This document shows, piece by piece, positions 46,501 through 60,726 of a stretch of DNA of 64,000 nucleotides. Position 1 is the first letter of the stretch. Every line of letters starts with the position of its first letter. Under the pieces are notes generated by a model. The model ran no database searches. It was not told the DNA's origin and was given only the letters and a program-made list of their open reading frames with translations. Made by a program: the position numbers and the translations under genes. Source of the stretch: a virus; IMG/VR virus record IMGVR_UViG_3300021197_000975, positions 6,359 through 70,358 of that record, one strand, 5' to 3'.

Positions 46501-49500
46501 TTCGAAAGGTGTTCCCTGAGTTTACTGAAACCGTACAAGATTTCTTATACAATAACAGTAACAGAACAGATAAGACTTGGAACAGTAAGGTAGCAATAAT
46601 TGCAAACCTTGCTTGGCTTCTTGACAATACTAAAGCAACAACTGAAAATGCATTTCAGGCTGAAGGTAACGGTATCATCCATAATAAAAATTACATCGAA
46701 CAATACTCAAGAAGAGTTACTGAAGCTTCTAATCTTATTCGAAGTACATATGATAAGTCAACAGCTATGGGTATTGAACAGACGGCATTCTCTTTGCTGA
46801 TGGATCCTGAATATGTTCTTCCCACTACTCTTACTGAAGAACAAAAACAACATGCTACTATGCTGTCAGATATCTTTAGAGCTAACCATGGGCAATTACT
46901 TAACATGGCTAAGGACATGCTTCTTAGAAGAGAAGGAAGAGAAACACATTCCAGCAATCTTGCTCTTAGATTAAATAGAGATTTTCTTCTTAGACAAGAG
47001 GGAAGGCGTGAAGAATTCGTCACAGCACTTGCTAATAAGCAATCAAGAAAGTTGCAAGCTTCTCTAATCCCAGCAGGAACAATTGATTCTACTCTTGTTT
47101 ACATGAGTGGTCTTGTTCCGCGAGTTATAACTAATCCAGATGGGAACAGTGTTCACCCTGAGTTTATTAATGAACTGGTAAAATACACCCGTGAAGATGC
47201 TCCGGGTGCTTTGAAAGCACAGTTAAAAATACTTGATAGACTGGCCTTGGAACAATTCCAGAAGAGCAATAAGGACTTGGATAGTGAATTATTAGCTAAT
47301 GAATTTGATCCTGAGGGAGAGAACCATTATCACAATATGGCTATTTATTACCAAAGAGCGGTAGTCAAGTTACTTAAAGATACTACAAATAAAAAGATAA
47401 CTTATAACGAGTTGTTTGATAAGGGTAGATTAAGTCAAGGTGAGCGAGGAGCTATCTTTAATTATCTCCAGAACAGAACAAATGTTGTTGAAGATGGTGG
47501 CGGTACTCTTGATGCGGTAGGTCGCGCTTCAGATCTAAAGTCTGGGCTTGGTGACATATTTAGATTAAGACAGGACATCTCTTCTGATATTGATGTCTGG
47601 GCTGGTGTCTCTCCAGATGCTGCCAGAATGAAGACAGCTTATCTTTTAGCACAGGTTGGTAACTCTACCTTCATTCCCTATGAGGATGGAACAGAATTAA
47701 CTATTACTGATATCTTTGGTCCTGATCAATATGGCGATGAAAGAGAACATTCTATTGTTCAAGCTGGGTTTACTCGAGATCTTAGACAGATTATCCGAGG
47801 AACTCAACGTGGTCTAGGAGCTGCTGCCCACACAAGAAAGGTTATCAAAGAACTTACTGGCGTAAACATGGACTTCAAAAGAATAATTGGATCATTACGA
47901 AGATATCTAGATGAGTCCCCTTACGCTACTCATATTTCTGAATCCGTTGATTTTAATGGCTTAGATAAATCTACCGGCGACCAAAAAGCTTTCATTCAAA
48001 GAGGGCTCGCACATCTCGAAAGAGTATATGAAGTAGGGATGAACATTGGAAACAGAGTTGAAATTACAGATAGAGCCGCGTGGGATACACTAGCAAAGTT
48101 TGGTCCTGATATTTTGACATACGTCTGGGGTCCAAACCTTAATGCTGCTAACTTAATCTTTGAGGGCGGGTTGTCTGGATTAACTACAGCTATGTATGGT
48201 GGTAATCCTGTCCAACTTTACTCTGATATCCTTGGTAATACCTTCTCACTCATATGGAAACTACGAAAGGGAATGTCAAACTTAGAATTCACTGGGCAAT
48301 TGAGAGCTTTGGGTGATGCTATGTTTGATACTGATTCAGCCTTACGTGACTTTATGGAAAACGATGTCTTTGAAAATGATCAATTCTTTGAGGAAGAAGG
48401 AATTCCTTTAAATGAAAGAGGCCGTAAGGCTTACTCCGGTTGGATTAAGGGATTAAGAACCTATAATAATATATCTGCTATGGCTGTTAAGATGGCAACT
48501 ATGAAGCAGGGCCACCGTATTCTTATGAAGAATCAAGAAAAATTACGGGAAATGATAGAGTGGAATAATAATTATGACGGTCCTGATAATATGAACAAGT
48601 TCCATAAGATGAAGAAGGAACTTGGTTTAAGATTCAGGGGTGAGGTTGCACAGATGTTTATGGAATCTGGTCTACTTAAAGAAGATAGTGCAGATAAATT
48701 AGATTGGATTATGGCTAATGTTCCTATGGTTCGGGGGATGATAGATATGTCATCTCTTAGAGAACGTATTGAACAATCTCCTAATGCTACTATTACCCAA
48801 GGGAATTCTGAATTTGCACTTAAAGATCTTTGGGAGTTTGCAACATCTATTGAATTGTTTGCTGATAAGTATTCTCAGCTTTCTGTTGTGAAGTCAGATC
48901 CCCTTGATAAAGATGTGGATAGTAATGCTGCGTGGTATCTTAATGCTTTATACCGCCAGTTCCCTAACTTGTTTGTGGCCCAGCATATTCTCCGTAAGGG
49001 AGCAAGGCATGGTATGGGTCCGTATGCTATGACCCTTAGTGCAGGTGTTGTACTCGATCTTATTTACAACTTATTCCTTGCCGCCTTGTTTGGAATGATT
49101 GAGCCAAAGGATTTCTCACGCTGGGCAAAGGGAGACTTTGATACCTCTGATCTCCTCCTTATTGGTAGATCTATTGCTAGATTCCCCGGATTTGGTATCA
49201 GAGGTAATGCGGCTACTGAGGCAGCAATGGGATTGGGATATGGTATTGCTAAATATACTGGAGGCGACATGGATTTAGCTAGAGCAGGAACCTTAGCTAT
49301 GCCCCTGCCAGTAGTTGCTGGAATTCGTTGGATAGAGAATATGTGGGCTGGTGTAAACAATCCCCTCAAATACGCATTAGCTGATTCTTCTGCGGATAAA
49401 GAATACTGGCAAGAGAAGACAATACGGGACTATGTGATGGCGGCAAAGAGTATGATACCCGGATTGAACGATAGTATTCTTACTTCGGTTATGAATAACG

Positions 49501-49898
49501 CATGGGGAGAACCCGTGAAACCCGGAAAGAAGCAGAGAACTGGAACTCCTTATCCTGTTAATGCGCCTACAATTAAGACCATAGAGGATGAACTTAATAA
49601 TAATTCTGTAGAGGGATTATACAGAAGAGCATTTACGGAGATGAATCCTGAACTTCCCTCCATTATGCACCAGAGAGGGAGGAGGACAGCAGCGATGAAA
49701 GAAGCGGTTAGCAACTCCCTTCCTGCTATGGCCCCTCAGATCCCCTCTAAGGCATCTTCACCCCAACCCACCTTACCCCCCTCGGGAGATCCGAAAGCTC
49801 CTCAGACGCAGCCTCCGGCTCCCTCAGGGCAAGTTACAGGACGGAGTGAGGGAGATGCTGCAACCAATCCTATACAAGCCCCTGAAGGCTTGATCTAA
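37578..49898 (+). CDS. Giant 4106-aa internal virion protein: coiled coil, DEDDy exonuclease, candidate T7-family RNA polymerase domain and zincin (HExxH) motif
   Basis: SFDIET / TFNGNSFD / YLDAD; FDYKFNGLHHF..QDIY..RDAMKKIVIPRLYMGG; FAHEVVH...DEFLAE. AGGAG RBS. Confidence 0.7.
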   Translation: MSCSLNFLDDLKQKFIDQGNSEADANNMVEALKIASSDPRSFRKHVASEKLKETWTSENKADLQGLMNKVLKSKDGTLLFDSLNEEESQSLKYLLTKKMAKDNDQAPVVRPSNADVRIQAEQELETEIERLQEIGDDRGAARNQQALSHLQQIRKNNSRLGNQYESISESIDSRDRLREQLVLLDVWLRNVDDGNKKAEARIKEMNEQLKTIKDDKYNQAKADKKTYEKQIKKLKSELKSIKNKKSEPANKIKREIKEKEGKLKEAVAIIQKADREAGPLEKKINRIIEAARELSDKNPEVKKLRKAHSAAEKKLKDVMAELNKAGFASDGFLQSIVQGINTAVTARQLAEDLQRARQDEALRIELIDSYFDKNHKNYIKPKEEKETTLSRDILSEILGPSFVVSRTEYGQVLTREEIDVLLKEWRSLNYKYAGEHGLLIADLTFADQQSLEAMQEQSTNEGKSVDETDNNTIIIPMLTQAQAMEKSNPGVIPDANAQLTPQELKQRLLKFVRKLETLRSSVGYGKYVGLQHVEAVLNNMPGLDDVSAQIWFDDAVRVLNEEGIETLTHTERQETLRHILRLTGMTDAEISSLPEMIDYGRWLQDLDVHDKENPMPLNQVVSFDIETRGKNNEEIIGWSIKRIDGTIINSRTIGEAMTKEEAQEMLALLNDLQNDGYKVVTFNGNSFDMNTLGALAENQQMGVRIAYRSLDVMQILRTFKSQIHTEDDAQSLYFSLNNVSRALGMGGKFGTVGPEGSVLRNLGKWYYLVHKKATTGEDVTFADIVKNGETMAEEDAQSILDEINGMSSEEAASYLDQYLDADAMLPAQILYGNGAQDGLFNMMGRNVKIKSANKGEATVEIAAPTPTWALTSNVTEAKQDRWHGLEWARHVADIGEVMTSAFSSIDDTSIVSVDLDLAISRVYDAVIRAQHLDPSQRLLAERMVDLAKETLSKEQLLEKEKINIIQANRQALENIHKEEFETGENAGRYPIEFVGANKIRYTSGAIDAQKAEYTDSVVNGFITFIGKRKAVDLDIIAKDIGFRERAVNEGDKKFAEQIINYFITRFTPHQKFQLSDWGDGTIDYAPANSVGIAIAQIVTTQPEGARLRDNARDWMEGGAEEFSESAKSEDEAYKRETTFHPPIFDEVHQALPRSLAEVEWAYDDWRLRKRLEHILDPKHITTKEEALEVIQSLRDREENENDVIGDTRTPRMGLTPNVSNRLIWNKLPSLEEHTNMVLESMLDMPQILMTWVHDSVALGGDHQMFLDPDLAETYFEDNALSPGSMTGSALISGLGIQLAHTRAYPVISIDTVIQSLERGISAYGDHGTDVFAKGNYFDYKFNGLHHFLALMLQYSPQGAQKLDEFLAEWEPTAFLYKTSKEAQDIYDTAEELIFESLTNHIKNTQEGPKRSELQKLLNFMESDPSIRDAMKKIVIPRLYMGGIDAMKSGLKEKAREEGWDINTDLLAELAMGPIQATKLRVVDKALGGLTDSDRRQLADALVTMYGDIYDHGRWHEQYKDYVKENHSLMEGKEFALSDLQFAIQKRIEFMVEILTPKTANDGLKLRERKGKMLTLIQERFQGRIQKAIDFVNEKGGVIKNQEDMRQLHVIISGSESAWKTSGTLAAMNVMGRTGYRLRSGEKINETDTLLEAQRQIIGRHLTEEDLLNYPSHLVYFAVGQDSAGQRLYYHSNNWGVQPQNVPAAQVYRENTHKGEDDNPYGMWKMEHNNLASLSKEDAETEVMKLVARDLSVRMAGSHAPQFGGYSTRPLKVTKDNVKTPGDETREGFWRDLKKRSTEEDNAYVRALNEEANWISAEERMKAGVSMEGDAALIDKLKQRRKTTGLRRNATRNVLDPTRTLNRAQNEIYVPSQDASVKGLGAFRPQYADIPWAERGIMSMAEARSNFKIDRGYNGRIHKDALSKTPESIADVIPSSARGWQGKYQGSDAPYVHETPIDFIGEGILGAGRKRIARRAEGLKNVLEKFAVEKGLQHFSEKNDWTSLYVRWQVDKKITRPFLKEISALETSTGATRGSSRQQALLARANMLSSLTGLHQFHRDVSQQNMTLIEYGQMLGFHPEDLKKSAANPEEGNQAFYWADFFKLLANRGVTNLAPLTINIDANSLSPVNLTAEGNILMGGEMTATSKQTRIITLTVQHNEMSQVLFTLFYEQRGREIAQEYLQSKMSEAAYGRLKKDGAGFPMLSEVPMSFQTELMHRLIEDKELLSIAIDNMGLHIILDSYTNEALASIGPHNLDPDKTLRPGMLTGGLHNFAVNENAGMYGITPEIANSMLSSLRNTVVNNTAELVSITGSQMGQVESPSMRLRDQAKRDFYESQRDGFSDEMDALSYLHITNNVDPPKSVRNPKLKNEYGQPVVVYDAPHYFAKKDKTTGLNPVEEGFAGYIRSAALNARALGLETEGKLLAQILNPKSTLFRTKYLREAVVIIVEASGSKMDSLFKLEAFLPGNWTRADIEVLYNEATKVRKGSKMSIVDAYRIAASRTMERNTFISPARRYVELNGEIDELNISADFAAYIGADVSNPETLLQARAAARIANNSLKEVSSEVEAFSGMDDDISLMEISDPEGFWHKYGNEGSSITAQISSMVGENLITPETAAFLRQMMGVVLSHNNDFANGLSLIHDPEISRASIAEKYGDKYSIRINPDLIKRMPQAEIIKVFAHEVVHIARMKYMESGDRAWNSLVGVYSTENGRETMRGLITIMTNGDSNAVNDAMEYYTGNIDEFLAEWGAYYLMAKTLGNHTVVNEVQNLRNTDTTAEETMQWWDRAFNYIKRVMGSIHQKLSIMQQTNPEVYKEMSTIVDGLFNFDNAHELTGRPLAKNPNMRMGVAKHTRMGPDFGRPSDENSRINSLAEVISREKNLRNTGAESDTNHPRHEEWLAATETIRAEGLLDHDILGIPHSEYISTLHEMWDADTGEFKQPENDKEEMIMISYLLKQVARQRGERVDSPGTFGHLLRKVFPEFTETVQDFLYNNSNRTDKTWNSKVAIIANLAWLLDNTKATTENAFQAEGNGIIHNKNYIEQYSRRVTEASNLIRSTYDKSTAMGIEQTAFSLLMDPEYVLPTTLTEEQKQHATMLSDIFRANHGQLLNMAKDMLLRREGRETHSSNLALRLNRDFLLRQEGRREEFVTALANKQSRKLQASLIPAGTIDSTLVYMSGLVPRVITNPDGNSVHPEFINELVKYTREDAPGALKAQLKILDRLALEQFQKSNKDLDSELLANEFDPEGENHYHNMAIYYQRAVVKLLKDTTNKKITYNELFDKGRLSQGERGAIFNYLQNRTNVVEDGGGTLDAVGRASDLKSGLGDIFRLRQDISSDIDVWAGVSPDAARMKTAYLLAQVGNSTFIPYEDGTELTITDIFGPDQYGDEREHSIVQAGFTRDLRQIIRGTQRGLGAAAHTRKVIKELTGVNMDFKRIIGSLRRYLDESPYATHISESVDFNGLDKSTGDQKAFIQRGLAHLERVYEVGMNIGNRVEITDRAAWDTLAKFGPDILTYVWGPNLNAANLIFEGGLSGLTTAMYGGNPVQLYSDILGNTFSLIWKLRKGMSNLEFTGQLRALGDAMFDTDSALRDFMENDVFENDQFFEEEGIPLNERGRKAYSGWIKGLRTYNNISAMAVKMATMKQGHRILMKNQEKLREMIEWNNNYDGPDNMNKFHKMKKELGLRFRGEVAQMFMESGLLKEDSADKLDWIMANVPMVRGMIDMSSLRERIEQSPNATITQGNSEFALKDLWEFATSIELFADKYSQLSVVKSDPLDKDVDSNAAWYLNALYRQFPNLFVAQHILRKGARHGMGPYAMTLSAGVVLDLIYNLFLAALFGMIEPKDFSRWAKGDFDTSDLLLIGRSIARFPGFGIRGNAATEAAMGLGYGIAKYTGGDMDLARAGTLAMPLPVVAGIRWIENMWAGVNNPLKYALADSSADKEYWQEKTIRDYVMAAKSMIPGLNDSILTSVMNNAWGEPVKPGKKQRTGTPYPVNAPTIKTIEDELNNNSVEGLYRRAFTEMNPELPSIMHQRGRRTAAMKEAVSNSLPAMAPQIPSKASSPQPTLPPSGDPKAPQTQPPAPSGQVTGRSEGDAATNPIQAPEGLI

Positions 49899-49912
49899 TA
49901 AGGAGATTAATT

Positions 49913-50179
49913 ATGGCTAAGAAAAGAAAAAGTAAAGGTGCAATGAAGGGCTGCAATATCGGCAATGGTTGCAAAAGTAAATCGGGGGGGCTTACGGCTA
50001 AAGGTCGAAGAATGATCAATAAGAAAACTGGATCTAAGCTTAAGGCCCCTCAGCCCGGAGGAGGAGCTCGTAAGAAAAGTTATTGTGCCAGATCAGCAGG
50101 GCAGATGAAAAAGTTCCCCAAGGCTGCTAAGGATCCTAACAGCAGATTGCGGAAGGCACGTAGGAAATGGAAGTGCTAA
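49913..50179 (+). CDS. Small basic protein common in aquatic phages
   Basis: GGLTAKGR...LKAPQPGGG.RKKSYCARS.G...DPNSR..KARRKWKC; AAGGAG RBS. Confidence 0.8.
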   Translation: MAKKRKSKGAMKGCNIGNGCKSKSGGLTAKGRRMINKKTGSKLKAPQPGGGARKKSYCARSAGQMKKFPKAAKDPNSRLRKARRKWKC

Positions 50180-50274
50180 AATCGACTATAGGGGTCGAGA
50201 ATTTGGACGGGGGGAGTATAGCTTTGAAGTTGAAGCTATCCCCCAGTACCCCCCCTTCAAAGGAGATACATACC

Positions 50275-50457
50275 ATGTATCCAAAGAAAAGACCTGAGAA
50301 AGGCAAGCTCATTGATATCTTCTCTCATAATCCTCTCGTAAAGGGAGGACAGGGAAGGTCTGCCCAGCAGACTAAGGAAGATACAATCAGTGGTGCTATT
50401 GTGTGGACTGTATTCATTGCAGTCTTCCTTGTGGTGCTGATCATCGCAGCTGCCTGA
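50275..50457 (+). CDS. Small protein with a C-terminal transmembrane helix
   Basis: AAGGAG RBS before ATG 50275; IVWTVFIAVFLVVLIIAAA. Confidence 0.55.
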   Translation: MYPKKRPEKGKLIDIFSHNPLVKGGQGRSAQQTKEDTISGAIVWTVFIAVFLVVLIIAAA

Positions 50458-50464
50458 TCTCACT

Positions 50465-50516
50465 GACAATCTCAACGATGCTCTCTCAATCGAGAGAGTA
50501 TCTATTGGGATTCTCA
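50465..50516 (+). repeat. 52-nt structured repeat, copy 1
   Basis: GACAATCTCAACGA-[22-nt hairpin]-TCTATTGGGATTCTCA; flanks identical to 50871-50922. Confidence 0.9.
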
Positions 50517-50565
50517 CTCTGAGAATTCTGTGCTTAAACTAGGGCTTGGCCCTAAGGAGTTTGAC

Positions 50566-50862
50566 ATGTCACAGTATGACGAACTGGCAGCCCGCCTTGC
50601 GGTGCTCGAAGCTCGTGATCGTATGCAGCGTGCCATCTTGTCGATGGTGACTGACCCTGCTACGTGGCAATCATTGCTTGACTTCCATGCTGAGTGGAAG
50701 GACGAGCTCCAAGCAATCGGTAAGGTTCTCAATGCTTTCTTCGATACGGAGAATGTACCTGAGCAGCTTATCGATACCATCGTTGATGGAGTCAAGGGAC
50801 ATGTAGCAGTACATGAGACTTGGCTAGAACATCATCGAGAGGCTGGTCACCTCAGTCACTGA
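50566..50862 (+). CDS. Hypothetical early protein
   Basis: AAGGAG RBS before ATG 50566; lies exactly between the two 52-nt repeats. Confidence 0.7.
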   Translation: MSQYDELAARLAVLEARDRMQRAILSMVTDPATWQSLLDFHAEWKDELQAIGKVLNAFFDTENVPEQLIDTIVDGVKGHVAVHETWLEHHREAGHLSH

Positions 50863-50870
50863 ACGTGACA

Positions 50871-50922
50871 GACAATCTCAACGACACCCTCTCTTAGGAG
50901 AGGTTGTCTATTGGGATTCTCA
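50871..50922 (+). repeat. 52-nt structured repeat, copy 2
   Basis: Same flanks and length as copy 1; different but still self-complementary core. Confidence 0.9.
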
Positions 50923-51057
50923 TCCCACGGAGGAGAACGAAAGGACACAAGGACCACGCCTGCGGTGGGCAGGCCAGACAAACTATGCAAGGAAGCAAGC
51001 TTCACGCTGTAGCTCAACAGATCGTTCCAGTGCTACAGCGGAGCAATAGACAATAGC

Positions 51058-51110
51058 TGCGGTAGACAGTAGGCGTGTCACTGCCTGCCGCACATTCTCC
51101 TGAGACACGC
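51058..51110 (+). promoter_or_regulatory. H-type pseudoknot in the leader of the divergent polymerase gene
   Basis: Stem 51058-70/51080-92; loop GCGTGTC is complementary to GACACGC at 51104-10. Confidence 0.6.
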
Positions 51111-51135
51111 GATAACTTTGGAAAGGAGGTTTGTC

Positions 51136-53046
51136 ATGATGGCAGACCGCACCAAAGTAGTGAGTGCTTTGACAAAGCCCGTATCAACGATATGGGATTT
51201 CGTCCACACTCTTCACACCTTCTGCAACATCCCGTTGCAGGAGGCTGGCGATCTCATGTTCGCCTTGGCTCACGATGGAACCATCGAGCTGTTCAACGTA
51301 GCAGACGATGAATCCAGCAAGACCACCACATATGTAGTTAATACACATGTGGCAAGTCGAGCCTTTGGACTTGATGGGGAATGTCGCCTCATCAGGTGTG
51401 ACGAGAACAAGCGTATCCCATCCCTCGGGGCGGGCGGGCGTCTTGGCTCTTTCCACTTGCCACCCATGTTGGCGAAGGCTATGGATCACAATGATTCCCA
51501 GCGGTTTATCATGCACACCGGGATGCTCGATATCTATCGACGCATCAAGGATGGCATGTCCCGCGAGGATGATTCCAAGAATGTGATCTGGACCCGTCGC
51601 CGCAACAGGATGGAACTGCTACTGGTTACGGAGTTCGAGACCCATGGTCCCGGCCCTTATCACCAGATCGGTACACCCGAGGCAGCATTCCGGCTCCATG
51701 TTCTGGCTTCCACTGCGGGCATTGCGTCCCATCAGGGAAGTGGTTGGCATCGTGCAGTGTGCGACTTCGCTCTTCGGTACGGAGCACCCAAGGGCAGTGA
51801 CGAGTGGGATCACGGTATGTACATCCTTGAACAGGAGTACAACGTGAACACCAGCAACTACGCCAAGATTCTCGAGGCAGGTTGCAGCTTGGATCTGTTC
51901 CTTAATCCCGCCAAGTACGAGCACATGCTCGGCACCACTGACGGGGCCAAGTTGGCCGAAGCTGTTCGCGCTGCGTTCTGCATTCATGAACTGCTGACTG
52001 AAGGATCCACCTCTTACATCTTCGGTAAGGACCGCAACTCCTGTGGTCCCGCCGATATGTCCCGTATGATCGGCTGCCGCGATCTCGCTACAGCTACGAA
52101 CATGATCTACTCGGGCAAGGAGGTGAACTTCGCAGCTGAAGTTCTCAAGTTTGTCGGCAAAAAGATTGCAGTGACTGACTCCATGTTGCCTTACGAGGAT
52201 CTCATCCTCGATCCCAAGGCAACTGGCAAGCCCTGCCTTCAGCCCATCCAGTACACGGCCTCTGCGGCTAGTGCGTCCCGTGCTCTTGTCTTTCGCAAGG
52301 GCAAGGGGGATGATGTCCATTACTTGGACGCTGCTGACATGTACATTCCCGGCTCTCTGGATAAGGTTGCTGAATGCGACCTCAACCAGAAGTGGCTCCA
52401 CGTTCACAAGGAGCTGGGTTGGGAGAAGAGCATTGCTCTTACCATTGAGACTGCAAGCTGCATCGAAGAGGCCTTCCACATGCTTTCCCACGGGAGGGCA
52501 CGAACGGCTGGTCAGATCATGAAGAAGGCAGTTGAAGTATGCAATGAGAATAAGACGTACCTCACATGGCCGACCGTCATGGGAATTGATTTCGTCTATC
52601 GGCCCACTGAACTTGATTACAGTGTGCTCGAAAAGGATGACGATGGCAACATCGTCAAGGACGAACGCATCAAGATCTCAGGTCGAGTGAATGGCAGGAG
52701 GAAGCAGTACAAGCTGTACCCGACTGTCACTGAAGCTCGTAGCTCAGGAGCCTTGGCTGCTGTGCTGCGTGTGAAGGATGCGGAACAGAATGTCCTGTAT
52801 AACTGCGAAGCCAGTGATGCAGGTATTCCCACCGCCAACACTCACGACAAGTTCGGCACAGCCCTTGGCTGCCTTGGTTTCGTGAACGAGGTGATCACCC
52901 GGAATGCAAAGACCGGGACCGATGCCAACTTCTTCAACGAGATCATTGACAGGTACGAACTGCCTTTCAACCACTTCACGCCACTGCGGCCTGAAGAGTT
53001 GGATGGCAAGCACATGCTGGACGGCACTCCGCCTCATCTGGCATGA
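51136..53046 (+). CDS. Highly divergent single-subunit (T7-family) RNA polymerase paralog, N-terminally shortened
   Basis: Colinear matches to the in-window RNAP: HQGSGWHRAVCDFA, KDRNSCG (motif A), KATGKPCLQPIQY (B), WPTVMG, KDAEQ, THDKFGT (C). AAGGAGG RBS. Confidence 0.8.
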   Translation: MMADRTKVVSALTKPVSTIWDFVHTLHTFCNIPLQEAGDLMFALAHDGTIELFNVADDESSKTTTYVVNTHVASRAFGLDGECRLIRCDENKRIPSLGAGGRLGSFHLPPMLAKAMDHNDSQRFIMHTGMLDIYRRIKDGMSREDDSKNVIWTRRRNRMELLLVTEFETHGPGPYHQIGTPEAAFRLHVLASTAGIASHQGSGWHRAVCDFALRYGAPKGSDEWDHGMYILEQEYNVNTSNYAKILEAGCSLDLFLNPAKYEHMLGTTDGAKLAEAVRAAFCIHELLTEGSTSYIFGKDRNSCGPADMSRMIGCRDLATATNMIYSGKEVNFAAEVLKFVGKKIAVTDSMLPYEDLILDPKATGKPCLQPIQYTASAASASRALVFRKGKGDDVHYLDAADMYIPGSLDKVAECDLNQKWLHVHKELGWEKSIALTIETASCIEEAFHMLSHGRARTAGQIMKKAVEVCNENKTYLTWPTVMGIDFVYRPTELDYSVLEKDDDGNIVKDERIKISGRVNGRRKQYKLYPTVTEARSSGALAAVLRVKDAEQNVLYNCEASDAGIPTANTHDKFGTALGCLGFVNEVITRNAKTGTDANFFNEIIDRYELPFNHFTPLRPEELDGKHMLDGTPPHLA

Positions 53047-53159
53047 TTCACCTTGACGGGTGACTCTCCGGGGACGGGCAGGCTGGGAGAAATCTCAGTC
53101 TGTCTATTAGATGTCTAGTTGTTAGATATCTATTTATTAATCTCACTGGAGATAAAACA

Positions 53160-53606
53160 ATGAACAATGGAAACAACGCAAGGTACTTCTACCTCGAGGA
53201 GGTGGAGTCACCTCACCGGAAGTTCTTCTTCACCTCATTCGGAGACCGGGTGGGTGTGAAGTTCGTGGACGCAATGCCCGAAGAGCTTCGTGAAGGTGCG
53301 AAGATATATGATCTTATTACCTTCCTGCCCATGTGTGAGCAGTCAGGGTACAAGGTCGTACAGAATCGCTGGACTTCCAAGCATATCCGTCTGACGAAGT
53401 TGGATGGGATCTGGAAGGCCAAGGTTGTGGCTGTTCACCCTCTGGCCGACAAGCCTCTTCACGCCACCTTTGGTGGTGAGACGATGCGAGATGCCCTCTC
53501 CAACTTCTGGCTTGGGTGGAACCAGAAGGTAGTGAATGAGTATGGACACCTCAATGTCCACACTCACATCATCTTCACCGAACCGAAGAAGTACCTCGAG
53601 TGCTGA
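53160..53606 (+). CDS. Hypothetical early protein
   Basis: GGAG RBS; 148 aa; codon style matches the island. Confidence 0.7.
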   Translation: MNNGNNARYFYLEEVESPHRKFFFTSFGDRVGVKFVDAMPEELREGAKIYDLITFLPMCEQSGYKVVQNRWTSKHIRLTKLDGIWKAKVVAVHPLADKPLHATFGGETMRDALSNFWLGWNQKVVNEYGHLNVHTHIIFTEPKKYLEC

Positions 53607-53617
53607 TGCACTGATTA

Positions 53618-53648
53618 CAAGGCCCCTTGCAAAGTGCTTGGGGCCTTG
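53618..53648 (+). terminator. Hairpin immediately after the gene (possible terminator or processing site)
   Basis: CAAGGCCCC/GGGGCCTTG 9-bp stem; poor U-tract. Confidence 0.4.
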
Positions 53649-53664
53649 ATCTCTAGGCATCTCT

Positions 53665-53870
53665 ACGTAACCCTAGATAACCCAAGTATCACGTAGCCCA
53701 TCATAACACAGGATAGCCCTAGAGGTAGCCCTAAGTCGGCCCAGAGTAGCCCGAGGTAGCCCTAGAGGTAGCCCTACAGGCAGGTAGCCCCGTGGTATCC
53801 CCTAAGTAGCCCCCAAGTAGCGGGGTAAGGGGGTATCCATAGGCCTACCTGCTTTTTTCGTAGCCCAACC
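53665..53870. repeat. Array of degenerate short GTAGCCC repeats
   Basis: About 8 TAGCCC copies plus variants (GTAACCC, GTATCCC), often 10-12 nt apart. Confidence 0.9.
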
Positions 53871-54105
53871 CAAGACGGAACGCTTCGCTGACCATCTCTT
53901 GCCTTCGGCACACGCGGAACACACTCCCAGTTGCTCCCGAATGCCAGCGGGGGTAAGCCCGTGGCATTCTGGGCAGTTTGTGAACATGTGTCACCGAGTA
54001 GGGATCTTTCGGGATCTTCTTGGTGACAGGTTGGAAGAGTCATCGTCCAGCCGTCCCCGTTGTGGGGAAGAAATGATGACGTACTCTTCGGAGGACTTGG
54101 AATCA

Positions 54106-54339
54106 ATGGCGAAGACCACTGATACCAAGCAGTCCACCAGCCCCAATGGATTCACTCGAATCCGTGAGGCTAAGGTGTCCCTTGAGGCCCAATACGCTGA
54201 GCGTGTTGAGGCTTGGGATGACGCCACGGTAGACCACTGCCTCGATATGATCGATGAAGGACGCATGCGCGTTCCCTTCAAGGTCCGTATCGTGCGTGCG
54301 TCTGCTGTCAAGCGTGGACTCGCCACTAATAACGGTTAA
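54106..54339 (+). CDS. Hypothetical early protein (MAKTTDTK...)
   Basis: GGAGG RBS at ~54090; biased codons; upstream extension unlikely. Confidence 0.6.
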   Translation: MAKTTDTKQSTSPNGFTRIREAKVSLEAQYAERVEAWDDATVDHCLDMIDEGRMRVPFKVRIVRASAVKRGLATNNG

Positions 54340-54344
54340 TCCGT

Positions 54345-54965
54345 TGTTGGGCCTCGCCTAGCGGGGTGGTGGTGTTTAGCACACCCGGCAGTAGCACTGG
54401 CTGTCGTTATGTCCTCAGTGCTTTTCTTTATGCTCTCTCCTTCGGGAGAGGGTGTAGAGAAAATGAGTTAGGTTGGAACCAACGGATCTCCCGTGAGCAG
54501 GTGCTTGCAGGGCTGCAACCCGGTGAAGGTGGCGACTGCCCCTCCATGGGAGATCCATTCCAACCGCAACGAGCAGCAGACGGGATGCAACTGCAATAAC
54601 AACATCCCAATTCGGGTGCTGGAGTGTGATGATGTCCGCCATTGACCAGCATACTATGAAGAGGCGGGTCCGGCTAAAGAAGGCAGCCGTGAGGTGGATA
54701 GGGGACGAATCGCCAGCCTTTACTTATGGAGACCTGAAGCCAGATCGTATGCTGGAACAGGATAAAGATAGCGCCTCTGTCTTAGGCGGGAACTGCTGGG
54801 CATGGTGAGAGGATACTCTCTTTGGATACGGTACACGCCGGTTACATGTAGGTAGATAAACCGTGGCCCGTAGCACGAAGAAATCGGGGCGGTACGGACC
54901 TTTGCTGTGAAGACGTTACCAGTAAAACAGCATGTGCCTGAGTATGCACGTAAATAACTACTCCA
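54345..54965 (+). ncRNA. Candidate large structured non-coding RNA
   Basis: No credible ORF; many nested helices with G-U pairs, a cUUCGg tetraloop and a terminal pseudoknot. Confidence 0.6.
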
Positions 54966-54973
54966 ATCTAATA

Positions 54974-55077
54974 GGGGGACCTAGGCATGCTCTACGATGT
55001 CCTGAGGTTGCTTGTGCTGGTTCAGGAGCCAAGATAAGTAACTTATGTCGTATCGGGTTCGAATCCCGGCCCCTCCT
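54974..55077 (+). ncRNA. tRNA-like element 1 (non-canonical)
   Basis: T-arm CGGG-TTCGAAT-CCCG and an imperfect G-rich/C-rich acceptor stem; a long hairpin replaces the anticodon arm. Confidence 0.55.
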
Positions 55078-55084
55078 AACCTAT

Positions 55085-55190
55085 GCCCTGCCGTGGCTTG
55101 GCTAAATTCTACGTGTCTTTGATAAGTAATTGGTCGTAGAAGATGAAAGTCAAAAGACTAGAGAGGTTCGACTCCTCTCGGGGCTTACCA
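55085..55190 (+). ncRNA. tRNA-like element 2 (non-canonical, encoded CCA)
   Basis: GCCCTG/CGGGGC acceptor, AGAGG-TTCGACT-CCTCT T-arm, variable hairpin AGTC-aaaa-GACT, 7-bp stem with a 21-nt loop, 3' ACCA. Confidence 0.6.
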
Positions 55191-55480
55191 TATCACGATG
55201 AGTCGTGCGTTAGTATAGAGCGTGAGACTATACCCAATGCAGAACTGGATTAGCGGGGGTGTCAGAGGTCTGTTGAGGTTTGAGTGCTACCAAGAGTCAG
55301 AAAGCATTACACGATTTTAGGTCTTGAGTTCGACACAAAACGGCTCGGGCTTGTGAGCTAAGGATCGTATCCTTCCCTGACTGCGAAATAACGTGAGGTC
55401 GATGGGTGGTGTAAGCATGACAACACACACGAGTTTCTTATGTATTACAAGGAGAACATATGATAATTCCAAACATGTTC

Positions 55481-55509
55481 TTGATCGGTGCTAGGTTATA
55501 TATTATACT
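55481..55509 (+). promoter_or_regulatory. Putative host sigma70-type promoter
   Basis: TTGATC-N17-TATACT upstream of the early gene run that leads to the RNAP. Confidence 0.45.
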
Positions 55510-55638
55510 AGAGCCCATCAGAATGACTCTTTGTTGAACCATATGGACAAGCCTAGACTGTAGTGATGGTGTGTAGTGGCTAGGATGAGGTCAGGGAGGC
55601 CAAGAGTAGCAATCTCCCCAGCATACAAGGAGGTGTCT

Positions 55639-55803
55639 ATGACACAAGATAATTACGATAGATACTACAAGTATCTCAATCTGCTCTCTGCCTACGGTCG
55701 TGAGGGTGAAGTGAGCGATCTTGTCGAGCACTTCAATGTCTCTAAATATGAGGCATTCAGAATTATAATGAATTGGGCTGAGTCCCAGAAGGAGTCTGAC
55801 TAA
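55639..55803 (+). CDS. Small hypothetical protein
   Basis: AAGGAGG RBS before ATG 55639. Confidence 0.65.
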   Translation: MTQDNYDRYYKYLNLLSAYGREGEVSDLVEHFNVSKYEAFRIIMNWAESQKESD

Positions 55804-57871: not shown

Positions 57872-58304
57872 GACTGAGTATTCTAGTTATGTGGATAGAA
57901 TATTATCCCATCCAAGGCACACACATCTTGCTGTTCAAGTAGGAGATTGGTGCTATCATATCACAACTGATGCTACTCCTGATAACTCTAAGGCTTATTG
58001 GGTTAGTGAAGAAGTTAGTAATAGACTGTGGAAAAAACCACTCACAAAAATACTAGTAGGGACAACAGATAAGAAGTGGGAAGACATTGTAAACTTTAGT
58101 TTAAACTGGTCTTCGCCGTTGTATCTAACACTCATTACTTATTTTACCTTTAGATTATTTAGGTGGAAGAAGGATTGTGTTACTTACTCTAGAAAATATT
58201 TAGAGTATCTTGTAGGAATAAAGATTAAGCATCCGCATTCCGTAACCCCAGATGGTTTTATCAAGGAGATATTAAACTGTGGGTATAAAAACTCAATGGT
58301 ATGA
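57810..58304 (+). CDS. Putative permuted papain-like (NlpC/P60 superfamily) enzyme
   Basis: His motif HTHLAVQVG precedes Cys motif DCVTY...VTPDG, the permuted order. Confidence 0.5.
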   Translation: MKKRLPTQFPSNPQVYLLGYKTEYSSYVDRILSHPRHTHLAVQVGDWCYHITTDATPDNSKAYWVSEEVSNRLWKKPLTKILVGTTDKKWEDIVNFSLNWSSPLYLTLITYFTFRLFRWKKDCVTYSRKYLEYLVGIKIKHPHSVTPDGFIKEILNCGYKNSMV

Positions 58305-60726
58305 ACTGACTCCCGAGGAGCAGTCACACCGTATCAATTTACAAAAGGTATTTGAAGAAGAACTTTTGACTAGTGGTGTCGAGCGTTACTGGAAAGATTG
58401 GGAACGATCAACAGATGAAGGGAAACCTGAACAGCTGTTGCTTGAAAGTTCCGTGATCCACCTTGCTCCATACTATCAGAAGTGGATTGATGTGGCGGTA
58501 AGCCATAGAAAATCTCCTCTTTGGTTACCTCCATTGTTATCTTTAGGTGCTGCTAAGATGGCTGATCTAACTATAAGATCTGTACTCAAAACATTTCTTA
58601 CACGAGCCACTGTATCGAAGTTATCTATTGGCAATGGGATGCCGTTCAACGCTCCCACTGCGCAAGCAATATCTAAACAGATTGCTGATGATGCTATTGC
58701 TATCATCTCTTATCAACAAGCTAAAGATTTATTTAAAGAAGATTGGATGAGGCAGTCTAAGTTTATTAAAAACTGGACACCTAAAAGATGCAAAGCTTTT
58801 ACTGATAAAGTGGCTACTATTAGTGAGTATACACACAAACAGAAGGAAGACTTTGGTCACAACATGTTACGTGTTGCACTTCAATCTGATATATTGACAT
58901 CTAAAATTGTATTTACAGGAGCTAGACGTAAAGCATTGATGGTAAGCCTTGCTCCTAAGATTCTAGAAGAGCTGTCAAATAGGCATGCTCTACTTGAAAC
59001 TGCTAGCATGGTGTATAGACCTATGATATCTCCACCTGTTCTTCATACTAAAGAAGAAGATGGTGGGTTCTTGTCCCCTTGGATAAGAAAGAAGATGATT
59101 AAAAGATACCATCCTATTGGATCTGATCCTAAAGAATGGAACTCTAAACCAAGTCAACTTGTGTTGGATGGTTTAAATGCTCAGATGGAAACTGAATGGA
59201 CAGTTAACTCTAAGGTTCTTGATGTTATGGAAAAGTTTTTCTATAATGATTACCGAGAAGCTAATGTTCCTTCATATACATTCAAAGATCATGCATTCAA
59301 TCGACCTTACCCTGAAGAAGGAACCAAGGTTGACCAAGCCAAGTGGATTCAAGAAGCCAATGAGTCTTGGGGTGAGTGGTATAAAGAAGAACAAACTCGT
59401 AGTCGTATGCTTGTTAGACTAAGATTAGCTAGGAAGATGGAAGACTTTGATTTCTTTTATATGCCATACACATTAGACTTTAGAGGTAGAGCTTACTCAG
59501 TATGTGAGTTACTCTCTTGTCAGGGTGTAGACTTTGACCGATCCTTGATTACATTTGCCACACCTATCAAACAAACTGAACGTGGTTTGTTCTGGCTTAA
59601 GGTACATGTAGCAAACTTGTTTGATCAAGATAAGGTTAGCTTCGAAGAAAGAGTTCAATGGGTTGATGATAACATGGATCTTCTTAAGGAAATGAATGAT
59701 GATCCGCTTGGTAACAGAGGTTGGGTATCAGATGCAAAGAAAAAGAACAAGTCGTTTCAAAGACTGGCTTCTATCTTTGAGTTGTTCCGTACTGATGGCA
59801 TGACTCAGTTACCTATCCAATTAGATGGCAAGAACAACGGTGTTCAACACTGGAGTGCTATCCGTAGAGATAGGAAGCTCGCTGTTCTTACTAATGTTAT
59901 TCCAAGTGCGACGAATAACGATCTATATCAGTATGTTGCGGACAAGACCTATCATATTATGATTGAGAATGAAGACAACAGAGATTGGTATGATAAATTT
60001 ACAACGTATTGGAACGATGGTCTTCCTCGTAGTGTACCTAAAAGAAGTACTATGTGTGATGCATATGGTCTTACCTTCTTTGGTATGCAGAAGTATGTTA
60101 AGGAAGAAGGACACGTTGATTGGGTTGATCGTGATGATCGAGGTGGTGCTATTGTAGAACTATCTAGAGCATTGCAAGAAGGACTAAGTACTACAATGCA
60201 AGAGCCTAACATAGGTAAACAATACTTGCGTAGTGTTGCTCGTATCTTAAATGATATGAACCTCCCTCTTGTATGGACTACACCTAGTGGGTTCACTGTT
60301 CAACATGTATACAATCAGGTCATTGAAAGAGTTAGTTATGCTGAGCTTTTCAATAGAACTTCAATAACTTTCGCAGCTTTAACCGAAGAGTTGGATAGCA
60401 AGGCACAGTTCTTAGCTATTAGTCCTAACTTTATTCATAGTATTGATGCTGCACATATGTTTTTAACTATACATAGGATGATTATGGAACACAATATAGA
60501 TTCCTTTTCTTTTATTCATGATTCTTTTGGGACGTATGGTCCTAACATAGATGCCATGTCTAAAATTATTAGGGAAGAATTTATCAGAGTACATAGGGTT
60601 AATCCTTTGGAACAATTTAAGAAAGACATAGAGGAAAGATATGAGATCATACTCCCAGATGTCCCAGAAAACACAGACGACTTCAACATCGAAGATGTCA
60701 TCGAGTCGGAATACATCTTTGGATAA
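58279..60726 (+). CDS. T7-type single-subunit DNA-directed RNA polymerase
   Basis: PMISPP, LDFRGRAY, LDGKNNGVQH (motif A), RSVPKRSTMCDAYG (B), PNFIHSIDAAH, IHDSFGT (C), C-terminal YIFG. Confidence 0.97.
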   Translation: MGIKTQWYELTPEEQSHRINLQKVFEEELLTSGVERYWKDWERSTDEGKPEQLLLESSVIHLAPYYQKWIDVAVSHRKSPLWLPPLLSLGAAKMADLTIRSVLKTFLTRATVSKLSIGNGMPFNAPTAQAISKQIADDAIAIISYQQAKDLFKEDWMRQSKFIKNWTPKRCKAFTDKVATISEYTHKQKEDFGHNMLRVALQSDILTSKIVFTGARRKALMVSLAPKILEELSNRHALLETASMVYRPMISPPVLHTKEEDGGFLSPWIRKKMIKRYHPIGSDPKEWNSKPSQLVLDGLNAQMETEWTVNSKVLDVMEKFFYNDYREANVPSYTFKDHAFNRPYPEEGTKVDQAKWIQEANESWGEWYKEEQTRSRMLVRLRLARKMEDFDFFYMPYTLDFRGRAYSVCELLSCQGVDFDRSLITFATPIKQTERGLFWLKVHVANLFDQDKVSFEERVQWVDDNMDLLKEMNDDPLGNRGWVSDAKKKNKSFQRLASIFELFRTDGMTQLPIQLDGKNNGVQHWSAIRRDRKLAVLTNVIPSATNNDLYQYVADKTYHIMIENEDNRDWYDKFTTYWNDGLPRSVPKRSTMCDAYGLTFFGMQKYVKEEGHVDWVDRDDRGGAIVELSRALQEGLSTTMQEPNIGKQYLRSVARILNDMNLPLVWTTPSGFTVQHVYNQVIERVSYAELFNRTSITFAALTEELDSKAQFLAISPNFIHSIDAAHMFLTIHRMIMEHNIDSFSFIHDSFGTYGPNIDAMSKIIREEFIRVHRVNPLEQFKKDIEERYEIILPDVPENTDDFNIEDVIESEYIFG

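What the first reader, a model, noticed from the sequence alone, without database searches (positions are those of the whole stretch)
54345..54965. About 600 nt of densely paired non-coding sequence: candidate new large phage ncRNA
Seen: CCCGGCAGT (54384)/ACTGCTGGG (54792) closes a ~415-nt multibranch domain. Inside are AGCACTG/CAGTGCT; a 19-bp stem with a cUUCGg loop (54422-54463); GGTTGGAA/TTCCAACC enclosing GGATCTCCCGTG/CATGGGAGATCC; GGGATG/CATCCC; CCAGCATAC/GTATGCTGG enclosing CGGCT/AGCCG; and CGCCT/AGGCG. More hairpins follow, and a compact pseudoknot (TGTGC/GCACG with GAGTA/TACTC, 54933-54963) lies directly before the tRNA-like elements. No ORF has a good RBS, in a genome that is otherwise wall-to-wall coding. 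Known: GOLLD and ROOL RNAs are large phage-associated RNAs often found near tRNAs; I cannot assign this one to them.
Basis: partly seen in the sequence, partly recalled or inferred. Interest (0 to 1): 0.78.

Follow-up and report, generated by a model that had tools for sequence, protein, structure and literature searches.

The report
Mosaic structured-RNA array in marine phage
The flagged stretch is real non-coding, hairpin-rich sequence in an uncultured marine phage, but it looks like a patchwork of small, separately exchangeable RNA modules rather than one conserved giant RNA.

Summary
They lie in by far the largest ORF-poor gap of the window, 54340-55802. No Rfam family, tRNA or tmRNA matches.

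The single ~600-nt RNA reading is not borne out.
- The proposed closing helix has ensemble probability 0.07.
- Folding stability is no greater than in neighbouring coding sequence.
- Three closer relatives (G001, G002/L012, G003) share only separate blocks: the GGGATG hairpin, parts of the CCAGCAT domain, and the 3' pseudoknot. These blocks are joined differently, and the 5' 235 nt have no homolog there.

RNA-level constraint on the + strand has modest support.
- Both pseudoknot stems carry a compensatory change.
- 5 of 5 population variants in named helices keep pairing (p about 0.06).
- Flanking tRNA-like units also show compensatory changes, and one of them is an optional 111-nt cassette.

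The same locus in more distant relatives holds Hammerhead_II and Pistol ribozymes and a manA-like RNA. The adjacent 642-aa gene is a cryptic second single-subunit RNA polymerase.

Best reading: a modular array of structured RNAs, probably processing or stability signals or small stable RNAs. Function is inferred; expression could not be tested.

The parts
54340..55480 (+). ORF-poor array of structured RNA modules. It runs from the stop of the small ORF 54073-54339 to a sigma-70-like promoter.
   Evidence: Largest ORF gap of the window. No Rfam, tRNA or tmRNA match. Mosaic block homology to relatives.
54351..54376 (+). Short GC hairpin followed by a U-rich tail; weak terminator-like site just after the small ORF.
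   Evidence: Terminator-like scan. No comparative data.
54384..54800 (+). The closing helix 54384-54392 / 54792-54800 has 9 pairs, one of them G.U.
   Evidence: Arms found. Ensemble probability 0.07. One variant, 54797 T>C, turns G.U into G-C. Absent from G001, G003 and L012.
54393..54422 (+). Hairpin AGCACTG/CAGTGCT.
   Evidence: probability 0.63. No variation seen.
54422..54463 (+). 19-bp stem with a cUUCGg tetraloop.
   Evidence: Probability 0.96. 3 of 3 variants keep pairing: 54440 C>T, 54457 G>A, 54461 A>G. No homolog in the other phages.
54471..54565 (+). Long composite hairpin: GGTTGGAA/TTCCAACC enclosing GGATCTCCCGTG/CATGGGAGATCC and a branched tip.
   Evidence: Probabilities 0.97 and 0.88. 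Variant 54492 C>T gives U.G.
54582..54608 (+). Hairpin GGGATG/CATCCC with a 15-nt loop. It is the most widely shared block.
   Evidence: Stem and most of the loop are identical in window, G001, G003 and L012 (alignment A4). No covariation.
54646..54755 (+). Domain closed by CCAGCATAC/GTATGCTGG.
   Evidence: Probability 0.56. G003 keeps CCAGCAT/ATGCTGG around a 26-nt insert instead of 92 nt. G001 has the 5' arm only.
54772..54788 (+). Hairpin CGCCT/AGGCG.
   Evidence: Kept in G003, with U-A changed to U.G. Probability 0.36.
54933..54963 (+). H-type pseudoknot. Stem 1 is (T)GTGC/GCAC(G); stem 2 is the loop GAGTA pairing with TACTC.
   Evidence: Alignments A3 and A5. Stem 1 G-C in the window against C-G in L012 and G003. 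Stem 2 U-A in window and L012 against C-G in G003. G001 lacks the 3' half of stem 1.
54972..55078 (+). tRNA-like unit 1: acceptor-like stem, long arm, and T-arm CGGGTTCGAATCCCG.
   Evidence: Fold. Long-arm helix with one compensatory and two wobble changes against L012, and the same as population variants. The 3' 22-mer equals the 3' ends of bacterial tRNA-Ser genes. Not called by ARAGORN or Rfam tRNA.
55079..55189 (+). tRNA-like unit 2: cloverleaf-like with an oversized loop, a T-arm and an ACCA end. It is an optional 111-nt cassette.
   Evidence: Contigs of X5 and X13 skip 55079-55189 and 55082-55190 respectively. G001 lacks it. Fold.
55190..55312 (+). Conserved RNA block with hairpin CACGA/TCGTG.
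   Evidence: 95% identical to G001. Compensatory A-U to G-C at 55198/55203 in G001, X5, X6 and X13.
55481..55509 (+). Sigma-70-like promoter TTGATC-17-TATACT; probable start of the next transcription unit.
   Evidence: Scan. G001 has TTGATT-17-TATAAT in the homologous block.
51118..53046 (+). Context: divergent single-subunit RNA polymerase. It is the second one in this phage.
   Evidence: A profile of 6 syntenic homologs hits mitochondrial RNAP (E 1.9e-15), T7 RNAP (8e-6) and N4 RNAPII (1.3e-4). The L012 homolog matches PHROG 414 'RNA polymerase' at E 5e-51.
53690..53858 (+). Context: iteron-like GTAGCCC/TAGG repeats, then a long hairpin followed by T6 (terminator-like).
   Evidence: Similar repeat fields sit at the same place in L002, G001 and G003.

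Best explanation
Window 54340-55480 is the untranslated tail of a GC-rich gene module, and the finding covers its first half. The module holds a second, minimal single-subunit RNA polymerase, small ORFs and iteron-like repeats.

The stretch is a mosaic array of small RNA modules that fold independently on the + strand: long GC hairpins, one widely shared hairpin, a small multibranch domain, an H-type pseudoknot, and then tRNA-like units. The modules are gained, lost and recombined as cassettes between related marine phages. It is therefore not one conserved large ncRNA.

Inferred, not shown: the modules act at the RNA level as processing and stability signals. Long hairpins would be double-strand RNase sites or 3' protectors. 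tRNA-like units would be RNase P/Z-type cut sites or small stable RNAs. They would punctuate long transcripts made by the phage polymerases. In more distant relatives this role is taken at the same locus by Hammerhead_II and Pistol self-cleaving ribozymes.
For: Non-coding.
- Largest ORF gap of the window.
- 0 of 6 internal ORFs have a Pfam family.
- The 77-aa ORF has no homolog but itself.

Modularity.
- Of the 1299-nt region, only separate blocks match relatives: 54576-54675 to G001 at 92%; 54582-54608 to G003 and L012; 54709-54793 to G003 at 87% (98% over its core 54734-54778); 54956-55074 to L012 at 86%; 55190-55312 to G001 at 95%.
- The homologous non-coding stretches differ widely in length. 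Those of G003, L012, L007 and L002 are 548, 287, 1121 and 526 nt; the one in G001 is split over the contig ends as 447 + 166 nt.
- Contigs from two other studies skip the 111-nt tRNA-like unit 2 exactly.

RNA-level constraint, + strand.
- Each pseudoknot stem has one compensatory pair.
- 5 of 5 itemised variants lying in named helices keep a standard pair. Three of them (C>T or A>G giving G.U) would be mismatches on the - strand.
- CCAGCAT/ATGCTGG is kept in G003 around a different insert.
- Compensatory pairs occur in tRNA-like unit 1 and in block 55190-55312.

Locus context.
- L002 has two Hammerhead_II ribozymes flanking an ORF. L007 has a Pistol ribozyme (51.7 bits) and a manA-like RNA.
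- The window has two copies of a 22-pair hairpin flanking an ORF at the corresponding place.
- A sigma-70-like promoter at 55481-55509 marks the next transcription unit.
Against: - No expression data: no RNA run was listed.
- The comparative set is tiny, three closer and two distant phages, so no covariation statistic is possible.
- The 5-of-5 variant result has p of about 0.06 under a simple transition model (my arithmetic pair types).
- The read-laying output itemised only part of the differences. At least 12 differences counted in its table 8 are not listed: 9 in 54311-54371 and 3 in 54724-54842.
- G001 lacks the 3' arm of the CCAGCATAC helix and half of pseudoknot stem 1, so these helices are dispensable there.
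- Thermodynamic stability is not above that of neighbouring coding sequence.
- No ribozyme, RNase P or other known processing RNA is detected in the window itself.
- The processing role is analogy only.
Confidence: 0.55

Rival explanations
1. One large, multi-domain ncRNA of about 600 nt or more, specific to the window's lineage. This is the reader's view: a GOLLD/ROOL-like ornate RNA beside tRNA-like elements, whose peripheral domains vary between phages around a small conserved core (the GGGATG hairpin plus the pseudoknot).
For:
- Variant 54797 T>C strengthens the long-range closing helix.
- The GGGATG hairpin and the 3' pseudoknot recur in 4 and 3 phages respectively, in the same order.
- GOLLD and ROOL are described as often lying near tRNAs and in prophages (PMC5737381, passages read).
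Against: - The closing helix has ensemble probability 0.07 and is absent from G001, G003 and L012.
- The 5' 235 nt have no homolog in relatives.
- L012 joins the hairpin to the pseudoknot with about 50 unrelated nt.
- There is no match to GOLLD, ROOL or any large-RNA family at E up to 10.
- The 3' half is not stabler than shuffles.
Confidence: 0.15
2. A DNA-level element rather than RNA: a genome-end, packaging, replication-origin or recombination hot-spot region. It lies between the late or auxiliary module and the early promoter, and its hairpins and repeats would act in DNA.
For: - It lies just upstream of a sigma-70-like promoter that heads the block holding the T7-like RNA polymerase gene.
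- Iteron-like repeats lie 500 nt upstream.
- The G001 contig breaks inside tRNA-like unit 1.
- Many recombination joints map here.
Against: - Three of five helix variants create G.U pairs that are mismatches on the other strand and in a DNA duplex cruciform.
- The pseudoknot covaries.
- T-loop motifs and a UUCG tetraloop are RNA features.
- No terminal repeat is reported for the window's record.
Confidence: 0.12
3. A decaying remnant of a tRNA gene cluster and old intergenic hairpins. It would have no present function, and its structure would simply reflect its origin.
For: - T-arm remnants are present, and the 3' end of unit 1 equals bacterial tRNA-Ser 3' ends. Of 6 loci checked, the match lies inside a tRNA-Ser call in 4, inside a call named tRNA-Trp in 1, and at no call in 1.
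- Cassettes are dispensable between relatives.
- Relatives carry true tRNAs elsewhere, while the window has none.
Against: - Compensatory changes keep helices in unit 1, in block 55190-55312 and in the pseudoknot.
- Blocks are 85-98% identical between phages, while the adjacent polymerase genes share only 14-28% amino-acid identity with the window's in alignment A2.
- The phage genome is otherwise tightly packed.
Confidence: 0.12
4. The stretch encodes one or more small proteins, for example the 77-aa ORF 54366-54599.
For: ORFs of 50-77 aa exist on both strands. The only indel seen inside the 77-aa ORF is 3 nt.
Against: - No Pfam family for 6 ORFs.
- No homolog but itself for the 77-aa ORF.
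- No convincing ribosome-binding site upstream of its GTG start (sequence).
- The ORF runs through a 19-bp stem.
- 2 of 5 substitutions fall on third codon positions, so there is no codon signature (my arithmetic).
- A 2-nt insertion after 54609 shifts the three ORFs that span it.
Confidence: 0.03

Closest known systems
GOLLD (RF01998) and ROOL (RF03087) large ornate RNAs
   Same: Long, hairpin-dense, non-coding and phage-associated, lying next to tRNA-like sequences. ROOL averages 581 nt, and both are described as often near tRNAs and in prophages (PMC5737381, passages read).
   Different: No covariance-model match even at E up to 10. No conserved multi-junction core across relatives. The parts recombine as cassettes. 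The Rfam accession numbers are recalled, not taken from a call.
Phage intergenic regions rich in self-cleaving ribozymes (hammerhead, twister, pistol, hatchet)
   Same: The same syntenic locus in relatives carries two Hammerhead_II ribozymes (L002) and a Pistol ribozyme (L007). [quoted passage not shown]
   Different: No known ribozyme class is detected in the window. Self-cleavage was not tested.
Intercistronic RNase III hairpins of T7-like phages, and tRNA punctuation of long transcripts (recalled knowledge)
   Same: A phage with single-subunit RNA polymerases. Long irregular hairpins and tRNA-like units lie between genes. A repeated 22-pair hairpin flanks an ORF.
   Different: Here more than 1 kb of such elements is clustered, not single sites between genes. 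Cleavage has not been shown.
tRNA, tmRNA tRNA-like domain, and Y-RNA-like (YrlA) tRNA mimics
   Same: GGTTCGAATCC-type T-arms with acceptor-like stems. Unit 1 folds as acceptor, long arm and T-arm without a D-arm, which resembles a tmRNA tRNA-like domain (recalled).
   Different: ARAGORN finds no tRNA or tmRNA. Rfam matches only a 15-nt tmRNA T-arm fragment at 12.4 bits against a cut-off of 47. There is no tag reading frame.
manA RNA (RF01745)
   Same: Marine and phage-borne (PMC2864571, passages read). A manA-like RNA occupies this locus in L007 and L002, at 37.8 bits and with 4 compensatory pairs.
   Different: Not detected in the window at E up to 10. Even in L007 it is below the family cut-off of 55.2 bits.

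Membership tests
GOLLD / ROOL | Match to the family covariance model (conserved multi-junction core and pseudoknots) | tested here: not met
   cmscan of the whole window at gathering scores gave 0 matches. cmscan of 53500-55800 at E up to 10 gave 4 matches, none to these families.
GOLLD / ROOL | One conserved architecture shared by homologs | tested here: not met
   Relatives share only separate blocks in different combinations.
tRNA | Cloverleaf with anticodon arm, recognised by ARAGORN or Rfam RF00005 | tested here: not met
   0 genes in the window. No RF00005 match at E up to 10. Relaxed ARAGORN gave only calls with 58-194-nt 'introns'.
tmRNA (standard or two-piece) | tRNA-like domain plus tag reading frame and pseudoknots | tested here: not met
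   ARAGORN found none, also with lowered thresholds. Rfam tmRNA matched only 15 nt of the T-arm at 12.4 bits against a cut-off of 47.
Self-cleaving ribozymes (hammerhead, pistol, twister, twister-sister, hatchet, HDV-like) | Match to a family model | tested here: not met
   None in the window. They are present in relatives L002 and L007.
Self-cleaving ribozymes (any class) | Site-specific self-cleavage | not testable with these tools
   Needs in vitro transcription and a cleavage assay.
Group I / group II introns, RNase P | Match to a family model | tested here: not met
   No match.
manA RNA | Match to RF01745 | tested here: not met
   No match in the window at E up to 10. L007 scores 37.8 bits, below the 55.2 cut-off.
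Structured ncRNA in general | Covariation that keeps helices | tested here: inconclusive
   Within 54345-54965 there are 2 compensatory pairs (both in the pseudoknot) and 5 of 5 pair-keeping single changes. There are only 3-4 sequences per block.
Structured ncRNA in general | Expression as stable RNA | not testable with these tools
   No RNA run was listed among 20 holders.
Single-subunit (T7-like) RNA polymerase, for the neighbouring 642-aa protein | Palm motifs A, B and C and profile similarity | tested here: met
   The profile of 6 homologs hits mitochondrial RNAP, T7 RNAP and N4 RNAPII. D305, K371, Y379 and D577 are invariant. The window protein alone has no Pfam or PHROG hit.

The most novel reading that the evidence does not exclude
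The 1.1-kb stretch, together with the rest of the GC-rich module, is a dedicated RNA island of an uncultured marine phage clade. On this reading it is transcribed with or by a second, minimal single-subunit RNA polymerase. It holds new classes of functional RNA: either a lineage-specific large multi-domain RNA, or new self-cleaving or tRNA-mimic decoy RNAs that stand in for the hammerhead and pistol ribozymes found at the same locus in relatives.
Probability: 0.15. Interest if true: 0.8.

Novelty: new variant of a known kind. Interest (0 to 1): 0.5.

Why it matters
If the modules are functional RNAs, this locus is a compact natural catalogue of exchangeable RNA parts in a phage clade with no cultured relative. 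The parts are hairpins, a pseudoknot and tRNA mimics in the window, and ribozymes and a manA-like RNA in relatives.

It is also a promising place to look for new ribozyme or decoy classes, because known self-cleaving ribozymes occupy the same position in relatives.

The neighbouring cryptic second RNA polymerase has no hit in Pfam, in PHROGs or in the cultured-phage collection for the window's copie. It raises the question of what a phage does with two single-subunit polymerases, and whether one of them serves this GC-rich, highly structured module.

For the scan itself, the lesson is that dense pairing seen by eye, and even a z-score near -5, did not separate non-coding from coding sequence in this island.

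Tried and rejected
- Rfam at gathering scores on the window, and at E up to 10 on 53500-55800 and 49700-51200. Only chance-level hits appeared: miRNA and snoRNA models matching hairpins, and a 15-nt tmRNA T-arm.
- ARAGORN, standard and relaxed: no credible tRNA or tmRNA.
- blastn of 53600-55650 against 50,697 GenBank phage records: no match.
- The 642-aa protein against viral contigs, the 5.8-billion protein set (itself only) and cultured phages: no relatives. Relatives were reached only through the 815-aa polymerase and through DNA patterns.
No deep homolog set could be built, so no R-scape-type test was possible.
- Sequencing runs: no RNA holder was listed, so expression stays untested. Parts of the stretch without contig cover in X5, X6 and X13 say nothing.
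- Integrase (PF00589) in the whole record: none. The T-arm-like sequences therefore have no tyrosine integrase beside them to suggest an attachment site.
- A repeated promoter-like motif was sought. TTTATTAATCTCA has 2 exact copies and 6 within two mismatches, against 4.4 expected. TCTATTGGGATTCTCA has 2 copies. Neither occurs in the finding.
- cUUCGg-type loops (CTTCGG): 26 in the window against 14 expected, both strands mixed. This was not informative.
- RNAalifold on G001 against G003 gave many 'compensatory' pairs, but with two sequences this is over-fitted and I do not use it.
- The small ORFs downstream of the polymerase are not similar between window and L012. Nor are the ORFs flanked by hairpins or ribozymes in window and L002.
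- Supplementary files of the cited papers were not consulted. They may list further genomic contexts of manA, pistol and ROOL.
Full report
**What the window is.** The window is bases 6359-70358 of a 70,358-nt IMG/VR virus record. Almost all genes are on the + strand: ORFs of 80 aa or more on that strand cover 94% of it. The phage has no close cultured relative. Its 815-aa T7-like RNA polymerase (58279-60726) is 28% identical to those of cultured podophages. The 2-kb stretch around the finding has no blastn match in 50,697 GenBank phage records. The finding lies at the 3' end of a GC-rich island (about 49-55.3 kb, GC 0.47-0.54 against about 0.40 elsewhere).

**Check of the observation.**
- The stretch 54340-55802 (1463 nt) is the largest gap without a + strand ORF of 80 aa or more. 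The next gap is 327 nt.
- The 621 nt fold better than dinucleotide shuffles: z -4.71 on the + strand and -2.89 on the - strand, 20 shuffles each.
- Three things weaken the picture of one densely paired 600-nt unit.
  - First, in 300-nt windows only the 5' half is unusually stable (z -3.2 to -3.4). For 54551-55000, z is -0.5 to +0.15.
  - Second, coding windows of the island are just as extreme: -5.45 at 51101-51400, -5.39 at 53051-53350 and -5.6 at 53951-54250. The z-score therefore does not mark the region as special.
- Third, in the thermodynamic ensemble the local hairpins are robust: 19-bp stem 0.96, GGTTGGAA 0.97, GGATCTCCCGTG 0.88. The proposed closing helix 54384/54792 has mean pair probability 0.07 and CGGCT/AGCCG 0.02.

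**Not coding, and not a known RNA.**
- Six ORFs of 50-77 aa inside the stretch have no Pfam family.
- The longest, 54366-54599, has only itself among 5.8 billion proteins.
- In near-identical relatives, a 2-nt insertion after 54609 shifts the three ORFs that span it. The five substitutions inside the 77-aa ORF fall on codon positions 3, 2, 3, 1 and 2 (my arithmetic).
- ARAGORN finds no tRNA or tmRNA in the window.
- Rfam gives nothing at gathering scores. At E up to 10 it gives only hairpin-shaped chance hits and a 15-nt T-arm fragment.

**Relatives and synteny.** Relatives were reached through the 815-aa polymerase (L002 and L007) and through exact DNA patterns from the region (G001 = L011/L021/L022; G002 = L012; G003 = L023/L025, then 48, 49, 56, 57). 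All five share the module order:
- a 598-642-aa protein;
- usually a 150-170-aa protein and a field of TAGG-rich repeats with a hairpin and T-run;
- a small ORF;
- a non-coding stretch, followed by AT-rich genes.

A profile of the six large proteins hits yeast mitochondrial RNA polymerase (E 1.9e-15), T7 RNA polymerase (8e-6) and N4 RNAPII (1.3e-4), with D305, K371, Y379 and D577 invariant. The L012 copy matches PHROG 414 'RNA polymerase' at E 5e-51. The window's copy has no Pfam, PHROG or cultured-phage hit on its own. The protein next to the finding is therefore a cryptic second single-subunit RNA polymerase.

**The non-coding stretch is a mosaic.**
- Lengths differ widely. The window's stretch is 1299 nt; those of G003, L012, L007 and L002 are 548, 287, 1121 and 526 nt; the one in G001 is split over the contig ends as 447 + 166 nt.
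- Only blocks of the window match:
  - 54576-54675 to G001, 92%;
  - 54582-54608 to G003 and L012;
  - 54709-54793 to G003, 87% (98% over the core 54734-54778);
  - 54956-55074 to L012, 86%;
  - 55190-55312 to G001, 95%.
- The 5' 235 nt (54340-54575), which hold the strongest hairpins, match none of the five.
- In L012 the GGGATG hairpin is joined to the pseudoknot by about 50 unrelated nt.
- In G003 it abuts CCAGCAT directly.
- In G001 the 5' arm CCAGCATAC is present but its partner is not.
- Further downstream, contigs from two other studies (X5, X13) skip 55079-55189 and 55082-55190 respectively, which is tRNA-like unit 2. G001 lacks the unit too.
- Loose ends and joints in run X4 show several such variants coexisting in one seawater sample.
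- None of the three closer relatives has the closing helix.

**Evidence for RNA-level constraint.**
- Within the finding, pseudoknot stem 1 is GTGC/GCAC in the window and CTGC/GCAG in L012 and G003.
- Stem 2 (loop GAGTA with TACTC) becomes GAGC/GCTC in G003, a U-A to C-G change. One terminal pair is lost there.
- CCAGCAT/ATGCTGG and the CGCC hairpin persist in G003 around other sequence.
- Of the 6 substitutions that read laying itemised between 54345 and 54965, 5 lie in named helices and all 5 keep a standard pair:
  - 54440 C>T, 54457 G>A and 54461 A>G in the 19-bp stem;
  - 54492 C>T in the GGATCTCCCGTG helix;
  - 54797 T>C in the closing helix.
- Three of these create G.U pairs, which would be A.C mismatches on the - strand. 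This points to + strand RNA.
- Under a simple model (a random transition at a random paired base of these 40 pairs keeps pairing with probability 0.575), 5 of 5 has p of about 0.06. That is suggestive only.
- At least 12 further differences were counted but not itemised, and the sixth itemised variant (54571) lies in no named helix.
- Outside the finding, tRNA-like unit 1 has a long helix with one compensatory and two wobble changes against L012. Block 55190-55312 has a compensatory A-U to G-C pair in G001, X5, X6 and X13.
- The GGGATG hairpin is sequence-invariant in four phages, which says nothing about pairing.

**What sits at this locus in relatives.** L002 has two Hammerhead_II ribozymes (50.2 and 45.5 bits) flanking an ORF upstream of the polymerase. 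L007 has a Pistol ribozyme (51.7 bits) and a manA-like RNA (37.8 bits, below the 55.2 cut-off) in the non-coding stretch. The manA-like RNA is shared with L002, with 4 compensatory pairs. [quoted passage not shown] In the window, two copies of a 22-pair hairpin flank the 110-aa ORF at the corresponding place. The hairpin has 2 compensatory pairs among three copies, one of which is from G001. No known ribozyme is detected there.

**Interpretation.**
- What is shown: the stretch is non-coding, is built of blocks that are exchanged separately, and carries several helices whose variation fits + strand RNA pairing.
- What is inferred: the blocks are RNA modules that punctuate and stabilise transcripts of this module, or give small stable RNAs or tRNA mimics. 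Ribozymes would do the same job in relatives.
- A sigma-70-like promoter at 55481-55509, kept in G001 as TTGATT-17-TATAAT, suggests that the next transcription unit starts just after the array.
- The single-large-RNA reading keeps some probability for the window's own lineage.
- A DNA-level role (genome end, origin or recombination hot spot) and plain decay of a tRNA cluster are the other rivals.
- Unit 1's 3' 22-mer equals the 3' ends of bacterial tRNA-Ser genes. Of 6 loci checked, the match lies inside a tRNA-Ser call in 4, inside a call named tRNA-Trp in 1, and at no call in 1.

**Limits.**
- There are no expression data: no RNA holder was listed.
- Paper supplements were not seen.

**Verdict.** The specific model of one GOLLD/ROOL-like RNA is not supported. 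The locus is still an interesting, uncharted RNA-rich module beside a cryptic second phage RNA polymerase.

Noticed in passing
window 51118-53046: The 642-aa ORF has no Pfam, PHROG or cultured-phage hit, yet it is a very divergent single-subunit RNA polymerase. It is about the combined size of the two N4 RNAPII chains in PDB entry 6dt7 (269 + 404 residues). It is a second polymerase beside the 815-aa T7-like enzyme at 58279-60726. Motif A is degenerate (KDRNSCGP), while the L012 copy keeps DASCSGFQH.
   Followed up: partly
window 50460-50520 and 50866-50926: Two copies of a ~55-nt extended hairpin flank the 110-aa ORF. The hairpin has 22 predicted pairs, and 2 are compensatory among three copies, one from G001. 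In L002 two Hammerhead_II ribozymes flank the ORF at the same relative place. No Rfam match. It is a candidate processing site or an unknown ribozyme.
   Followed up: partly
window 53690-53858: An iteron-like field of GTAGCCC/TAGG repeats ends in a long hairpin with a T6 run. Comparable repeat fields sit at the same place in L002, G001 and G003. It could be an origin, a protein-binding array or a promoter array.
   Followed up: no
window 54972-55312: A cassette array of tRNA-like units. Unit 2 (55079-55189) is skipped exactly in contigs of two other studies and is absent from G001. Unit 1's 3' 22-mer is identical to the 3' ends of bacterial tRNA-Ser genes. Blocks here are held at 6-11% of sampled words by 16 of the 20 listed runs, from 12 further studies, one of them a freshwater metagenome study.
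   Followed up: partly
window 55481-55509: A sigma-70-like promoter (TTGATC-17-TATACT), conserved in G001 as TTGATT-17-TATAAT. It probably starts the host-polymerase early unit that includes the T7-like RNA polymerase gene.
   Followed up: no
window 55546-55612; L022 872-940; L025 6208-6295: A conserved leader-like element (GCCTAG...GCTAGG hairpin, then GGCCAAGAGTAG) always lies just upstream of a gene start. In G001 it sits after the homolog of the 116-aa gene, not before it as in the window.
   Followed up: no
L007 6140-6351 and L002 5975-6190; L007 6406-6482: A manA-like RNA below the Rfam cut-off (37.8 against 55.2 bits) has 4 compensatory pairs between two phages. It lies next to a Pistol ribozyme in L007.
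   Followed up: partly
window 50200-54400: The whole GC-rich island, coding parts included, folds much more stably than dinucleotide shuffles, with many 300-nt windows at z -3 to -5.6. The flanking giant-gene end at 49001-50050 is near 0 on the + strand. This is unexplained.
   Followed up: no
window 37578-49898: A 4106-aa ORF with only an RNase_H-like domain (residues 623-743) and a weak SprT-like hit (22.9 bits, below the 25.6 cut-off). It has no PHROG family.
   Followed up: no
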